DNA of 64,000 nt from a virus, in IMG/VR virus record IMGVR_UViG_3300013093_000001, positions 32,001 to 96,000 of that record; one strand, 5' to 3'. Positions 57,288-63,880 of this stretch are shown here, in pieces. The translations under genes were made by a program, and so were the position numbers. Numbering within the stretch: the stretch's first letter is position 1; each line of letters starts with the position of its first letter. The notes beneath the pieces were generated by a model. That model was not told the origin of the DNA. It made no database searches and was given only the letters and a program-made list of their open reading frames with translations.

Positions 57288-57704
57288 CTACGACACCGCC
57301 TGTCGCATCAGGTCCGAGAACTCCATAAGGTGGCCGTACTTACGTTTCAGGTCACCGATTTCCCGCTGGAGCTCTTTCAACAGGATTTTCGTTAGGAACT
57401 CATCCTGTACTAGTTCCTCTGTCGGAATGTACCCAGTCCGTCTGTCGCCAGCTTCATGGAATGACTGGAAAGCCCTCACGTACCGACGCTCTCCAGACGG
57501 CGCATCGGGTATTTGAATGCGTACAGACCTCACCAACTCAGCAGCCTGTACCTTCCGGTAAGCCTCTCCCGCAACGGTGTCGTCCCATTCAAACCGATGG
57601 TGGAGGGGCGCGTCCAACGGACGCGCCTCCTCGACAACCAGTTCTGGCGTTAACTCACCGTGGTTACGGTAAATTGCCGTCAAAACATCACGCAGGTTTG
57701 ACAT
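57288..57704 (-). CDS. Conserved phage protein, partner of the RAMP-like gene
   Basis: LTPELVVEEAR...PLHHRFEWDD..A...YR..QA; start overlaps the stop of the RAMP-like gene. Confidence 0.75.
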   Translation of the reverse strand: MSNLRDVLTAIYRNHGELTPELVVEEARPLDAPLHHRFEWDDTVAGEAYRKVQAAELVRSVRIQIPDAPSGERRYVRAFQSFHEAGDRRTGYIPTEELVQDEFLTKILLKELQREIGDLKRKYGHLMEFSDLMRQAVS

Positions 57705-58366
57705 CAGCCTTCAATGCCAATCTCAACACTGCGGTCCACCTCGTACGTCCCGTACTCACCACGCTTTTCTGGCCGCCACTCACCGACCCCAATACCCATG
57801 CCGCCAGCGTCAATGAGAGACAGCACGCTGTTGCGGTCAATGGATGACTTGACGTAGGTCACCGTCAGTACCGTCGTCCATTCGGGGAACATTGGACGGT
57901 ATCGCAGGTCAGCCGACCGGGATGGACCGCCTAACCTGACCACGTCCTCACGCATCTCCGGTACACCCTTGATTTCGACCAACATTTGCGGGTCGGCCTT
58001 AGTCAAAACGCCGCGAAAAAACAGGAACTGCCGCAACGCCGTCATCGTGATGGACTTGTCGTAGAACCTGGCCGCGCTTGTCGTCGCCGCCTTAAACGCG
58101 GTGACAGGGAAGCCGTAAGCCTCTACCGGCTGGTCCGGTGTTCCCACGTTCGGCATGTCACTACGCAGGATGCGGTAAAAAGATGCCTCATACTCTGCTT
58201 TGGGGTCGCGGATTTCCTTGACCTTTTTCTTACCTTGCTGCGCCTCCAGCATCTGCCGCTTAGACTTCTCGCTAAAGTTGTGGACAATCAGCGGAGATGT
58301 ACCGATGATCGGTACATACAGCGTTTCTACGTCAATTCTGTCTAGCTTTACGTTATCTGTCGTCAC
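57704..58366 (-). CDS. Cas7/RAMP-like RNA-binding protein (putative Vipr-type effector)
   Basis: IIGTSPLIVH first strand, GFPVTAFKAA helix motif and C-terminal Gly-rich loop GIGVGEWRPEKRGEYGTYEV. Confidence 0.7.
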   Translation of the reverse strand: MTTDNVKLDRIDVETLYVPIIGTSPLIVHNFSEKSKRQMLEAQQGKKKVKEIRDPKAEYEASFYRILRSDMPNVGTPDQPVEAYGFPVTAFKAATTSAARFYDKSITMTALRQFLFFRGVLTKADPQMLVEIKGVPEMREDVVRLGGPSRSADLRYRPMFPEWTTVLTVTYVKSSIDRNSVLSLIDAGGMGIGVGEWRPEKRGEYGTYEVDRSVEIGIEG

Positions 58367-58375
58367 TACACTTAC

Positions 58376-58439
58376 CTCTCCTTATGGGTCAGCCCGTTGC
58401 CGACCTCGTACCCTGTCCAAGTTTGACCCTGACCAGGGC
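58376..58439 (-). repeat. Isolated copy of the double-hairpin element upstream of the RAMP-like gene
   Basis: GCCCTGGTCAGG-GTCAAA-CTTGGACAGGGT-ACGA-GGTCGGC-AACGG-GCTGACC followed by SD AAGGAGAGG. Confidence 0.75.
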
Positions 58440-58544
58440 TCGCGTGCCACGACGGGGTTCCTTATGCCACGCCTGCTGACCCGCATATATATATATACGG
58501 TAAATAAAACCGGCTTACTTCACCAGGCCAACTTGTCATGCCCA

Positions 58545-59152
58545 GCACTGCCTGCCGTGCTAAGCCCAGCCCAGCCGCACCAAACCCGACCTCGCCGTAC
58601 CGTACCTCGCCTGCCTCGCCGTGCCAGACCCGACCTCGCCATGCCAGACCTCACCGCGCCAAACCGTACCGCGCCCCGCCTGCCATGCCATGCCTTGCGA
58701 TGCCATGCCGTACCACGCCTCACCTTGCCTGCCTCGCTAGCCTCACCTTGCCTGCCTCGCCATACCATTCCTCGCCTCGCCTTGCCGCGCCTGCCTTGCC
58801 ACACCCTGCCTCGACACGCCAAGCAAAGCCCAGCCTCGCCTGCCATGACTTGCCTCAACGTGACATACCCGGCCTTGACCCGCCTGCCCTGCCTTGACTT
58901 GCCTCGACTTGCCTCAACCAGCCTCGACTGCCGCGCCACACCGCGCCAGACCGCGCCATCCACACCCAGCCGCTCCGTGCCTCGACTGCGTCGCCGCGCC
59001 ATGCCTGACCGGGACTGCCTCGCCATACCAGGCCGTGCCGTGCCATGCCAAACCGCGCCCTGCCCGGTCCCGCCATGCCTTGCCACGCCTTGACTGCCGT
59101 GACTTGACAAACCCCGCCGTGCCCAACCAAACCTGACCATGCCTGCCAGCCA
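58545..59152 (-). ncRNA. Segmented GGY-NN pentamer array (putative guide-RNA array)
   Basis: Over 100 pentamers with a near-constant GG(C/T) and a variable NN; 13 GGCAG(G/T)C-type delimiters give 12 segments of 23-79 nt. Confidence 0.75.
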
Positions 59153-59181
59153 GCTAGGTTGCCTTGTCGAACAATGCTCTG

Positions 59182-59223
59182 TATGGCAGTCCCGGCGACG
59201 GAGGTAGACACCGGGACCGCCAT
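59182..59223. terminator. Stem-loop between the DUF932 gene and the pentamer array
   Basis: TATGGCAGTCCCGG / CCGGGACCGCCATA inverted repeat. Confidence 0.45.
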
Positions 59224-59258
59224 ACCTTATTTTAGTTGTAGGTTGTACTGTTCACCAG

Positions 59259-60326
59259 CTACCCCAACACAGACTCCAACGCCGCCACGAACTTGCGGTC
59301 CGACTCAGCCTGCTCTCCCTTAATTGCTCGCCAGGTGTTGCGCTCGCTACGAGATCCCTGAATTTGACTCAACCAGTGGTCCCAGGTGTTGTTCGTTTGG
59401 ACTGCACCAAAGGCGGTACCTTGCCACGGTGCACATCGGTCGTCGGACGTGTATAAATCCCACCACCTGTCGCGTTTATTCAACGCCACCGTCCTAGCGC
59501 GACCCTCATCCTCTGGTATGGGGATGACAATGTCCAAAACCTTGCCGACCTGCTGCGTTGTGACCTCTCGGTCCAGCAAAGCGTGTAATTCGGACACAAA
59601 CTCCTCGTTGGTGGCTTCCAAAATACCCAGCGCGTCCCGCTCGTCTTGGAAATCAGCAAAGTTGCGGGTGTGTTTGCGCCTAAACAGGACACCAGCCTTG
59701 TTGGCTTCCAGCAGGTTCCACGACAACGTGTTATCGCAGACCGTTGCGTTGATTGTCCTGCCGCTCGTTTGGGAAATCGAACCGTCCATGCTGTCAGCTT
59801 TGAGCAGGTTGGGTCGGTAATCGAAACCCGACTTAGCGTCGTGTAGCGTTTCCGGCAACGAGAACTCAACCCAGGCGCGGCCACCTTTAGCTAGCAGACC
59901 GGCAGACGAGATGCCTAACACTGAACCCGTTAACCGCTCTGCCTGCTGGATTAGGGTTATGCCGTAGGACTGGTGGATCGCGGTCTTGAAAATCCCCAGG
60001 TCGTAGCCGGTGTCGTCCCGCAACACTCCACGACGCGCCGCCTGCGACTCAATAACCTTAACCGCGACACCCTGCGCTGTTATGAAATCAGCTTCGTCAA
60101 CCTCACACGGTTTCAGGTACGCCACCTCAAGTGACTGCGGTAGCCAGTTAAATAGTCGGCGCTGCACGTCGGCGACTGGAATAAAACCCTCGTAATGGTT
60201 ACATTCCATATAGGTACCGTCTTCGTTTTTGCGGAGGTCGTCGCGGCGGTGCCACGCATTCCCCCTTTGCGCGGTCATGCCGATCAATGTGTTGACCTGC
60301 AAGTCCCGCATCGTTTCTTGCGTCAT
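59259..60326 (-). CDS. DUF932 (TIGR03299-like) protein
   Basis: NAWH, SAGLL.KG, S.DGS, VCDNTL, RKHT and GTAFG motifs. Confidence 0.8.
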   Translation of the reverse strand: MTQETMRDLQVNTLIGMTAQRGNAWHRRDDLRKNEDGTYMECNHYEGFIPVADVQRRLFNWLPQSLEVAYLKPCEVDEADFITAQGVAVKVIESQAARRGVLRDDTGYDLGIFKTAIHQSYGITLIQQAERLTGSVLGISSAGLLAKGGRAWVEFSLPETLHDAKSGFDYRPNLLKADSMDGSISQTSGRTINATVCDNTLSWNLLEANKAGVLFRRKHTRNFADFQDERDALGILEATNEEFVSELHALLDREVTTQQVGKVLDIVIPIPEDEGRARTVALNKRDRWWDLYTSDDRCAPWQGTAFGAVQTNNTWDHWLSQIQGSRSERNTWRAIKGEQAESDRKFVAALESVLG

Positions 60327-61969: not shown

Positions 61970-62212
61970 GTGTTGTTCAAACTGATACCAGTCGGTGTTG
62001 TGAACGCTTTGGAGAATTTCGTCAACAGTGTCATAACGGTAATTGTTGACTCTGTTGAGGACCGGATGCGGATGGTGATGCTGGAGTTCACCGTCGATGA
62101 CCCTAATGCTGGTGGACCCGTTATATGTAGTAAATGCGCCACTAATACCGAGTCGGGTATATGCCCTGACTGTCAGCCTATGGCGCACTCTCGACTCCCT
62201 AACCAGGCATGA
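61970..62212 (+). CDS. Small hypothetical protein with CxxC motifs
   Basis: SD AGGAGG; stop overlaps the terL start. Confidence 0.55.
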   Translation: MLFKLIPVGVVNALENFVNSVITVIVDSVEDRMRMVMLEFTVDDPNAGGPVICSKCATNTESGICPDCQPMAHSRLPNQA

Positions 62213-63828
62213 CTGCCGCGTTTGTTGACGAGGTCATCCCCGCGCAGGGGAGTACCACGCCACGCATTTACACCAAGCCCCTGGATGTCAACTGCACTGG
62301 TCAGGTTGATGACGAGGAGTGCATTTGCGGGTGTGGACTCAACCCTGACACGTCGTGGGGTTTCGACTGCATCGACTTCCTCCTCAATGTGTGTCATTGG
62401 CAGCTTATGCCCTGGCAGGAGTGGTTGTATGTGCACGCTTTGGAGAAGCAGACAGACGGTACGGGTTTCCGCTTCCAAATCCTTGTCATCCTGGTGGCGC
62501 GTCAGAATGGTAAGTCGCGGTGGCTTAAGGGGCTGGGTTTGTGGCGGCTTTTCCTGTCCCGCTACGGGCGGGTTGACGCTCATTGTCCTGGCGCTCGACT
62601 CGCTGTCATCGCTGCTCAGAACCTTGACTATGCGGAGAATATGCTCAAGGAGGTTGTTGACGAAATCCGTGACAACCCGCTGCTGTGCCGTGAGCTGATT
62701 AACCACCGGGTCACCAATGGTAAACACAGGGCTATCCTCACTAACCGCCGTTACTGGCGTGCCGCCACCGCGTCCCGTAAAGGCGCTCGTTCGTTGTCGG
62801 TAGACATAGCCATGTTGGATGAGTTGCGTGAGCATACGACGTGGGATGCGTGGAATGCTATTGTCCCGACGACGACGGTACGCCGATACAGCCAGGTGGT
62901 GTGTACCAGCAACGCGGGAGACAGCCGCAGTGAGGTGTTGAGAGCGGCCAGGGATGGCGCTATGCGCCGCGTGTTGACGGGCGAAACGGAGAACACCAGG
63001 ATCGGGTTGTTTGAGTGGAGTGTTCCTATGGAGGAAGACCCTAAAGACCCGGCGTTTTGGCACATGGCTAACCCGTCTATGGGTTTACTGAATGATTTTT
63101 CGCTGGATGATTTGCGTGGCTATTTGGAGGCAATGGAGTATAGGAACTTGGCTGGCTTTCAAACTGAACACCTGTGTCAGTGGGTTGACTCCCTGCAACC
63201 TGGCATTTTGCCAGCTGAGCATTGGGCTGAAACTATTGACCCCACCAGTCGCAGAGATGAGTCGGCACCTGTTTTCGCGGCATTGGACGTTAACTATGAT
63301 AGGACGAGAAGCTATGTCTGCATCGCAGGCCGTCGCGCTGACGGTAACTTGCACATTGAAATTGCCGTCGCTGCCAGCGGAACTGACTGGGTTGTTGAGT
63401 ACCTTGCGGAACGAAAGAAAAAGTTCAAAGCCGTCGCTGTCCAAAAGACCGGAGCGCCGGTCAGCGGTATGATTGACGACATTAAACGCGCTGGTGTCAA
63501 GGTTGTTGAGTGGGGTCCGAGCAACGAAATTGCTGGGGCCTGCGCCATGCTGTATGACCAGATCACTGAACACCGGATTTTCCACCGGCCAGCCGGAGCC
63601 CTGGACCGAGCAGCTGCTAGCGGCGTGGCGAGGAATGTCAGTGAGGGTTGGGTGTTTGACCGCCGTAACTCCCCCGTCGACGTGTCGCCTTTAATTGCGT
63701 GCGCCGCTGCGGCATGGTTGGAGCATAAAAGGCCGGGAACGCCTACAGTTCATGAGTGGCCTGATGAAGATGTCATTAGGCAGTGGGAAGAAGAAGGCCG
63801 AGGCATGGAGGCGCAATGGAAAACGTGA
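62209..63828 (+). CDS. terL: Terminase large subunit
   Basis: LMPWQ, VARQNGKS (Walker A), MLDELRE (Walker B), TSNAG and ANPS. Confidence 0.93.
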   Translation: MTAAFVDEVIPAQGSTTPRIYTKPLDVNCTGQVDDEECICGCGLNPDTSWGFDCIDFLLNVCHWQLMPWQEWLYVHALEKQTDGTGFRFQILVILVARQNGKSRWLKGLGLWRLFLSRYGRVDAHCPGARLAVIAAQNLDYAENMLKEVVDEIRDNPLLCRELINHRVTNGKHRAILTNRRYWRAATASRKGARSLSVDIAMLDELREHTTWDAWNAIVPTTTVRRYSQVVCTSNAGDSRSEVLRAARDGAMRRVLTGETENTRIGLFEWSVPMEEDPKDPAFWHMANPSMGLLNDFSLDDLRGYLEAMEYRNLAGFQTEHLCQWVDSLQPGILPAEHWAETIDPTSRRDESAPVFAALDVNYDRTRSYVCIAGRRADGNLHIEIAVAASGTDWVVEYLAERKKKFKAVAVQKTGAPVSGMIDDIKRAGVKVVEWGPSNEIAGACAMLYDQITEHRIFHRPAGALDRAAASGVARNVSEGWVFDRRNSPVDVSPLIACAAAAWLEHKRPGTPTVHEWPDEDVIRQWEEEGRGMEAQWKT

Positions 63829-63880
63829 CACCAGAAGAAGAAGGCCGAGGCATGGAGGCGCAATGGAAAACGTGACACCA
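63787..63880 (+). repeat. Perfect 47-bp tandem duplication
   Basis: 63787-63833 is identical to 63834-63880. Confidence 0.9.

What the first reader, a model, noticed from the sequence alone, without database searches (positions are those of the whole stretch)
59020..59091. Variable dinucleotides decode as wobble-skipped codons; one unit spells an excisionase-like motif
Seen: the NN string of unit 59020-59091 on the minus strand is AA GT AA AT GG CG AG GC TT AT AC AC CT AT GA. Read as codon positions 1-2 it gives (K/N)V(K/N)(I/M)GR(R/S)A(F/L)(I/M)TT. This resembles the KVNIGRRxFIT wing motif that I recall from mycobacterial HTH excisionase/AlpA-like proteins. Unit 58616-58677 gives GAT(L/F)A(D/E)L(I/M)(D/E)RLT(D/E), like an amphipathic helix. 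Inference: guides pair with two of every three target bases, tolerate synonymous escape, and may target xis-like genes of prophages or satellites. Caveat: any NN string decodes to some peptide.
Basis: inference. Interest (0 to 1): 0.9.

Follow-up and report, generated by a model that had tools for sequence, protein, structure and literature searches.

The report
Phage VIPR guide-RNA array

Summary
On the minus strand, 59020-59091 reads NN-GGC fifteen times with exactly the dinucleotides listed. It is one unit (59015-59094, 16 pentamers) of a 615-nt array at 58533-59147, made of 118 pentamers and 17 four-base phase shifts.

The array sits next to a 220-aa gene that is a Vipr protein. Its family profile matches the solved SUSP1 Vipr structure (PDB 36pp) at E=2e-13, and its fold is Cas7-like. 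A small accessory gene follows. This is therefore a VIPR locus with a "staggered" vrRNA array, a kind published in 2026 (bioRxiv 10.64898/2026.04.26.720920). In that system each NN pairs with target DNA and every third base, usually the codon wobble, is skipped.

I confirmed the rule in this actinobacterial clade. A guide conserved in related prophages reads, antisense and in codon phase, the AHELGHL motif of XRE-ImmA/IrrE protease genes. It gave 16 hits in 301 genomes, against 1 for the backwards control and 0 with a two-base gap.

The excisionase claim is not supported. Unit 4 found no credible target in viral contigs, metagenome contigs, 201 genomes of a related Nocardia's family, or the phage itself.

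This scan has already found VIPR in at least 16 other genomes. Verdict: new member of a known kind.

The parts
58533..59147 (-). Staggered vrRNA array. It holds about 125 GGYNN pentamers in about 13 units of 6-16 pentamers. Most units end in GGCAG, whose last G is the first G of the next unit (a 4-nt phase shift).
   Evidence: Dynamic-programming segmentation and periodicity and entropy statistics. The same architecture lies beside vipr homologues in 18 other loci. It matches the legend of fig. S18 of 10.64898/2026.04.26.720920.
59015..59094 (-). Its NN string is AA GT AA AT GG CG AG GC TT AT AC AC CT AT GA AG.
   Evidence: No natural target was found.
58611..58680 (-). Its NN string is GG GC AC TT GC GA CT AT GA CG CT AC GA AG.
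   Evidence: Seed searches hit only AELIERLT(D/E)-coding sites. The best full match was 22/28, below the published 80% threshold.
58500..58526 (-). Terminator-like hairpin plus a T-run directly after the last unit. It is the likely 3' end of the array transcript.
   Evidence: Consensus scan. This is an inference, not a mapped RNA end.
58367..58499 (-). Structured leader between the array and vipr, including a (TA)6 run at 58486-58497. It may hold a promoter or 5'UTR for vipr-vap.
   Evidence: RNA fold z-score -2.7. Its function is not tested.
57704..58366 (-). vipr gene: a 220-aa minimal Cas7-like RAMP protein (phrog_4652).
   Evidence: A single-sequence search hits PDB 36pp 'SUSP1 Vipr protein' at E=3e-4. 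The family profile hits it at E=2.1e-13 over residues 3-188 of the 202-residue chain. The AF2 model has pLDDT 93.8. The top Foldseek hits are all Csm3/Cmr4/Cas7.
57288..57704 (-). Candidate vap accessory gene (138 aa, phrog_15946). Its start overlaps the vipr stop by 1 nt.
   Evidence: It is adjacent to vipr or the array in the window, Donkeykong and UmaThurman. The AF2 model has pLDDT 88.7. The N-terminal ~100 residues give only middling winged-helix-like matches, Z 5-6.2.

Best explanation
Window 57288-59147 (minus strand) is a VIPR (Viral Interference Programmable Repeat) locus of an uncultured 114-kb actinobacteriophage.

The 615-nt GGYNN array is probably transcribed as one precursor and cut into about 13 vrRNAs at the GGCAG junctions (inferred). 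By analogy with the solved SUSP1 system (inferred), Vipr protomers polymerise along each vrRNA. One protomer holds each GGY and presents the two following bases.

The presented NN dinucleotides pair with double-stranded target DNA while every third target base is skipped. A guide therefore reads codon positions 1-2 and ignores wobble positions, which silences transcription of a rival phage, prophage or satellite gene. The rule is shown in the literature and, here, for sister arrays.

Unit 59020-59091 is one such guide. Its target gene is unknown.
For: 1. Protein. The adjacent 220-aa gene belongs to the Vipr family. The profile of 57 homologues hits PDB 36pp SUSP1 Vipr at E=2.1e-13 over nearly its full length. 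The high-confidence model has a Cas7/Csm3 RAMP fold.
2. RNA. The array has GGY constant and NN hypervariable with a strict 5-nt phase. Units are mostly in the published range of 9-16 repeats. The 1-nt-overlap junctions match the 'staggered arrays' legend.
3. Conserved module. Array, vipr and phrog_15946 occur together in the window, Mycobacterium phage Donkeykong and Gordonia phage UmaThurman, despite a different gene order. Arrays lie on the vipr strand in 16 further loci.
4. Rule. A guide family shared by 9 related loci matches the (F)(D/T)xAHELGHL coding sites of HTH+Peptidase_M78 genes at 83-92% of NN bases. The skipped base is at the wobble position in every case, including sites in the same genomes as the guides. 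There were 16 hits in 301 Microbacteriaceae genomes, against 1 for the backwards control and 0 with a 2-nt gap.
5. No self-targeting of the phage's own 113,905-bp genome, as the paper reports for its systems.
Against: No natural target was found for any of the five window guides tried, so targeting by this particular array is inferred, not shown. Expression and processing of the array were not tested. Three units (58928-59015) have only 6 pentamers, below the published 9-16, and may be degenerate or wrongly split. The accessory protein has no significant structural match, so its equivalence to a published vap class is open. The VIPR type (I-VII) could not be assigned, because the figures and tables that define the types are not held.
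Confidence: 0.9

Rival explanations
1. One reading: unit 59020-59091 is aimed at the wing-coding part of an HTH excisionase/AlpA-like gene of a rival prophage or satellite.
For: VIPR guides elsewhere do target excision functions and lysis-lysogeny regulators. The sense-strand decoding (K/N)V(K/N)(I/M)GR(R/S)A(F/L)(I/M)TTL... is protein-like. The window guides' NN composition weakly prefers codon positions 1-2 in sense orientation (+5.7 nats, against -1.2 and -21.3 for the other phases).
Against: Exact 9- or 10-NN seeds (NN1-10, NN5-14, NN1-9) gave 0 hits in 2.9 million viral contigs. The NN3-11 seed gave 10 hits in metagenome contigs, but the flanks matched at chance level (best 24/32). Three of those hits have in-frame stops, and the one best-scoring site I checked (L042; L046 and L047 carry the same peptide) lies antisense to a 391-aa ORF. 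There was no match with up to 3 mismatches in 201 genomes of the Nocardia genome's family, in 5 related phage records, or in the phage itself. Pfam sees nothing in the decoded peptide. Two actinophage excisionases lack the motif. Each guide yields two decodings with several two-way choices, so some resemblance is expected.
Confidence: 0.1
2. The repeat region is a protein-coding gene. A 206-aa Arg/Gly-rich ORF (58520-59140, minus strand) spans it, and equivalent regions are annotated as CDS in Donkeykong (gp48) and UmaThurman (gp40).
For: One of three minus-strand frames has no stop across the array. GenBank annotators called CDSs over the equivalent regions.
Against: GGYNN pentamers can make only one stop (TAG, from NN=TA), so an open frame is nearly automatic. 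The repeat unit is 5 nt with 17 shifts of 4 nt, which is not a codon-based pattern. Conservation lies in GGY nucleotides and not in any peptide. There is no Pfam or PHROG match. Homologous arrays are experimentally shown to be non-coding RNAs bound by Vipr.
Confidence: 0.02
3. The array RNAs are made and bound by Vipr, but some or all units are not aimed at rival elements. They could be decoys, regulators of host or own genes, or decaying guides.
For: [quoted passage not shown] No foreign target was found for five window units. Three units are short.
Against: No match in the phage's own genome. Sister arrays have clear targets in co-resident elements. The host and its mobile elements are unsampled, which explains the blanks equally well.
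Confidence: 0.08

Closest known systems
VIPR systems with staggered vrRNA arrays (bioRxiv 10.64898/2026.04.26.720920, fig. S18 legend; types I-VII)
   Same: A lone minimal RAMP (Vipr) gene and a small accessory gene. Same-strand GGY/NN pentamer guides in the flanking intergenic DNA. Consecutive guides overlap by 1 nt. Phage-borne. Sister arrays follow the 1-nt skip with wobble alignment.
   Different: The type could not be assigned. This array has about 13 guides in one block, upstream of vipr. Junctions are the fixed word GGCAG. Three units are shorter than 9 repeats. Targets are unknown.
Type II VIPR of Escherichia phage SUSP1 (Vipr structure PDB 36pp; 10.64898/2026.04.26.720927)
   Same: Homologous Vipr protein (profile E=2.1e-13) and the same GGYNN guide grammar.
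   Different: SUSP1 vrRNAs are separate transcripts of about 100 nt, each with a conserved structured 3' tail. Here no tail separates the units; there is only a terminator-like hairpin after the last unit. The sequence match to SUSP1 Vipr is weak: a single-sequence search aligns only residues 153-207 at E=3e-4.
Class 1 CRISPR-Cas Cas7/Csm3 backbone with crRNA
   Same: RAMP fold (Foldseek E about 2e-5 to Csm3, Cmr4 and type VII Cas7), and periodic interruption of guide-target pairing by the protein.
   Different: No match to cas genes among the flanking genes scanned, and no CRISPR-like repeat-spacer array in the tandem-repeat scan of the window. The guide is written in every pentamer rather than in a contiguous spacer. 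Two of three target bases are read, rather than five of six.

Membership tests
VIPR system | Vipr protein: a small stand-alone RAMP homologous to SUSP1 Vipr | tested here: met
   The family profile hits PDB 36pp at E=2.1e-13, aligning profile positions 19-202 to chain residues 3-188. The AF2 model has pLDDT 93.8, and the top 40+ Foldseek hits are Cas7-type RAMPs.
VIPR system | vrRNA locus: tandem YNNGG/GGYNN pentamers with conserved GGY and hypervariable NN, 9-16 per guide, flanking vipr on the same strand | tested here: met
   Nine of the 13 units have 8-16 pentamers, three have 6, and one is broken. The array is on the same strand as vipr and 167 nt upstream of it.
VIPR system | Adjacent vap accessory gene with a DNA-interacting fold | tested here: inconclusive
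   A co-oriented 138-aa gene overlaps the vipr stop and is conserved in three phages. Winged-helix-like matches reach only Z 5-6.2, and there is no Foldseek hit below E=0.5. The sequences of vap1-6 are not available to compare.
VIPR system | Guides match natural targets under the 1-nt skip rule (at least 80% NN match), with skip bases mostly at wobble positions | tested here: inconclusive
   Met for sister arrays: the HELGH guide family gave 16 hits against 1 (backwards control) and 0 (2-nt gap), all in codon phase. Not found for the window's own units 3... i.e. units 4, 14, 15 and 16.
VIPR system | vrRNAs are expressed, processed and co-purify with Vipr | not testable with these tools
   This needs small-RNA sequencing or pull-down. 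The only evidence here is a terminator-like hairpin after the array.
Staggered-array architecture (fig. S18) | Consecutive vrRNAs share 1 nt, so that the end of one marks the start of the next | tested here: met
   There are 17 four-base units, nearly all GGCA followed by G(G/T)C, which shift the pentamer phase by -1. The same is seen in 18 related loci. The actual RNA ends are not mapped.
   There were 0 exact seed hits in viral contigs. Metagenome hits were at chance level only. There were 0 hits with up to 3 mismatches in 201 genomes of the Nocardia genome's family, in 5 related phage records, and in the phage's own genome.

The most novel reading that the evidence does not exclude
The window's 13 guides, including unit 4, are aimed at an unsampled rival prophage or satellite of a Mycobacteriales-like host, with unit 4 reading an excisionase-type DNA-binding gene. 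In addition, the tail-less, GGCAG-punctuated array may be processed by a mechanism not yet described for VIPR. If both hold, actinobacteriophages, including well-studied Cluster F mycobacteriophages whose arrays are annotated as protein genes, would offer a tractable system for VIPR biology.
Probability: 0.12. Interest if true: 0.45.

Novelty: new member of a known kind. Interest (0 to 1): 0.3.

Why it matters
The result shows that a reader working from sequence alone re-derived the gapped, wobble-skipping guide code of VIPR systems. It also places a clear VIPR locus in a 114-kb uncultured actinophage.

Practical value is modest. It flags that GGYNN arrays in cultured actinophages are annotated as hypothetical protein genes (Donkeykong gp48, UmaThurman gp40). 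It also shows that actinobacterial prophage VIPRs carry a conserved guide against the catalytic HELGH motif of XRE-ImmA/IrrE genes of co-resident elements. The mechanism itself is already published.

Tried and rejected
1. Protein-coding reading of the array. Rejected: 5-nt unit, 4-nt shifts, no family match.
2. My early ideas before the PDB hit (a TRAP-like RNA-binding ring, G-quadruplex DNA, Chi-like decoys) were dropped once the neighbouring gene matched Vipr.
3. Target searches for window guides all failed.
- Unit 4 seeds NN1-10, NN5-14 and NN1-9 in viral contigs gave 0 hits.
- Unit 4 seed NN3-11 in metagenome contigs gave 10 hits with chance-level flanks.
- Unit 15 seeds gave 10 hits, all AELIERLT(D/E)-type sites, best 22/28.
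- A unit 16 seed gave 0 hits.
- A unit 14 seed gave 18 hits, all in 29-40% GC phages and mostly one gene. These are implausible for a 56% GC actinophage.
- Unit 4 with up to 3 mismatches gave nothing in 5 related phage records, in 201 genomes of the Nocardia genome's family, or in its own genome.
4. Scanning all 143 parsed guides against 620 kb of fetched loci showed no excess at gap 1 over gaps 0 or 2.
5. Pfam on the decoded peptides gave nothing.
6. The codon-phase composition test was weakly positive for the window guides and negative for the pooled guides, so it was not used.
7. Rfam has no family for the region.
8. The 0-nt gap control was not run at genome scale. Only the 2-nt gap and backwards controls were run.

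Full report
**What is there.** Window 58533-59147 is a 615-nt run of five-base units that read GGYNN on the minus strand. A segmentation gives 118 pentamers and 17 four-base units.
- The first three positions are almost fixed: G 95%, G 87%, C/T 97%. The last two are close to random, at 1.74 and 1.98 bits.
- Of 103 GGY sites, 70 have another GGY exactly 5 nt downstream. Shuffles gave a mean of 4 and a maximum of 13.
- The four-base units are nearly all GGCA followed by G(G/T)C. They cut the array into about 13 units of 6-16 pentamers, most ending in GGCAG.
Its NN string is exactly as reported, as is the string of 58616-58677.

**Context.** The window is part of a complete 113,905-bp virus record with direct terminal repeats and 55.7% GC. 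The large terminase is closest to those of Mycobacterium phages, at about 56% identity.
- The array lies between two minus-strand genes: a DUF932 gene (59259-60326) and a 220-aa gene (57704-58366, phrog_4652). The stop of the 220-aa gene overlaps the start of a 138-aa gene (57288-57704, phrog_15946).
- A terminator-like hairpin with a T-run follows the last unit (58526-58500). A (TA)6 run and a structured leader precede the 220-aa gene.

**The same module elsewhere.** blastn with the region hit cultured actinophages inside the array itself.
- In Mycobacterium phage Donkeykong the order is array, phrog_4652, phrog_15946 (gp48, gp49, gp50). In Gordonia phage UmaThurman it is phrog_4652, array, phrog_15946 (gp39, gp40, gp41). 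In both records the array is annotated as a hypothetical protein.
- Sixteen further loci encoding close relatives of the 220-aa protein were fetched. They come from Microbacterium, Streptomyces and Nocardia genomes and from IMG/VR contigs. All carry same-strand GGYNN arrays next to the gene, upstream, downstream or both. Units are mostly 9-14 pentamers, again ending in GGCAG.

**What the protein is.**
- A sequence search of solved structures gave one hit, PDB 36pp 'SUSP1 Vipr protein' (E=3e-4).
- A profile of 57 diverse homologues raised this to E=2.1e-13 over nearly the whole chain.
- The AlphaFold model is confident (pLDDT 93.8). All its significant Foldseek matches are Cas7-type RAMPs: Csm3, Cmr4/6, type VII Cas7 and Cas7-11.
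- The family is large, with 3,193 cluster representatives at E<=0.001.

**What is known.** Three 2026 preprints describe VIPR systems.
- A system has a minimal RAMP protein (Vipr), an accessory gene (vap) and vrRNAs made of 9-16 YNNGG repeats.
- GGY is held by the protein. The NN dinucleotides pair with double-stranded DNA while one target base in three is skipped. The skipped base usually falls on the codon wobble position.
- Natural targets are satellites, prophage regulators and other VIPR loci.
- Seven types exist. One array architecture is 'staggered', with consecutive vrRNAs overlapping by 1 nt. That is what the GGCA|G phase shifts amount to.

**Testing the rule in this clade.** Comparing guides between loci showed one family shared by nine loci, with NN core AT AC AG TG CC AG TC TG GC AC.
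- Read as the reverse complement in NNx codons, it spells V-A-H-E-L-G-H-L-V, a zincin HExxH motif.
- The 1-nt-gap pattern found sites in the very genomes that carry the guides. The Microbacterium ginsengisoli guide matches a site on another contig at 19/22. The Nocardia guide matches at 21/26.
- The sites lie in codon phase 0 inside genes with an XRE helix-turn-helix and a Peptidase_M78 (ImmA/IrrE) domain.
- In 301 Microbacteriaceae genomes the pattern gave 16 sites with at most 1 mismatch, 3 of them perfect. The backwards control gave 1. The same NN string with a 2-nt gap gave 0.
- Differences between sister guides track differences between targets beyond the core.

This is direct support for the wobble-skipping code in actinobacterial staggered arrays.

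**Testing the specific claim.** I looked for targets of the window's own guides.
- Unit 4: exact seeds of 9-10 NN gave nothing in 2.9 million viral contigs.
- Unit 4: a 9-NN seed gave 10 hits in metagenome contigs. Outside the seed they match at chance level (19-24 of 32). Three have in-frame stops. The one best-scoring site I checked (L042; L046 and L047 carry the same peptide) is antisense to a long ORF.
- Unit 4 with up to 3 mismatches: no site in the phage's own genome, in five related phage records, or in 201 genomes of the family of the Nocardia genome.
- Unit 15: seeds hit only AELIERLT(D/E)-coding sites, best 22/28.
- Unit 16: no hits.
- Unit 14: hits only in low-GC phages.
- Pfam does not recognise the decoded peptides.
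- The two actinophage excisionases at hand lack the motif.

The excisionase reading thus rests on a recalled resemblance. It also requires AGx to be read as Arg rather than Ser. It is not excluded, because the host and its mobile elements are unsampled, but nothing supports it.

**Accessory gene.** The 138-aa protein folds confidently (pLDDT 88.7). Its first ~100 residues give a list dominated by winged-helix DNA-binding domains, but only at Z 5-6.2, and Foldseek finds nothing significant. This is compatible with the DNA-binding vaps described for some VIPR types, but it is not a demonstration.

**Verdict.** This is a real VIPR locus with a staggered guide array. The general interpretation is right but already published. 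The named target is unsupported. The scan has reported VIPR loci in at least 16 other genomes. I rate it a new member of a known kind, of modest interest.

Noticed in passing
L001:2954-3340 (Donkeykong gp48) and L002:2954-3277 (UmaThurman gp40): In GenBank records of cultured actinophages the GGYNN vrRNA arrays are annotated as hypothetical protein CDSs. The flanking phrog_4652 and phrog_15946 genes are unnamed. These look like unrecognised VIPR loci in tractable phages.
   Followed up: partly
L004, L005/L013, L006, L008, L011, L014, L015, L018 (guides); L020, L022, L023, L028-L037 (targets): A guide family conserved across Microbacterium, Nocardia and metagenomic prophage VIPRs reads, antisense and in codon phase, the catalytic AHELGHL motif of XRE + Peptidase_M78 (ImmA/IrrE) genes, including genes in the same host genome. 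Silencing such a gene could lock a rival prophage in lysogeny, or switch off an XRE/M78-controlled element.
   Followed up: partly
window 58928-59015: Three consecutive units have only 6 pentamers each, below the published 9-16. One junction reads GGATG and another CGCAG instead of GGCAG. They may be decayed guides or a mis-split longer guide.
   Followed up: no
window 58611-58680: Unit 15 decodes in sense to GAT(F/L)A(D/E)L(I/M)(D/E)RLT(D/E). From my own recollection, its second half resembles the AELIERL motif common in SAP/HeH-type DNA-binding domains. Only partial matches were found.
   Followed up: partly
window 63787-63880: A perfect 47-bp direct tandem repeat (2.0 copies) straddles the end of the large terminase ORF (62209-63828).
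   Followed up: no
window 59181-59226: A GC-rich hairpin lies between the DUF932 gene's stop and the start of the array. It could be the terminator of the upstream operon or part of the array's promoter region.
   Followed up: no
window 58520-59140 (minus) and 58200-59093 (plus): Long ORFs of 206 and 297 aa run through the array on both strands. This is only because GGYNN/NNRCC repeats almost never make stop codons, so gene callers will be misled here.
   Followed up: yes
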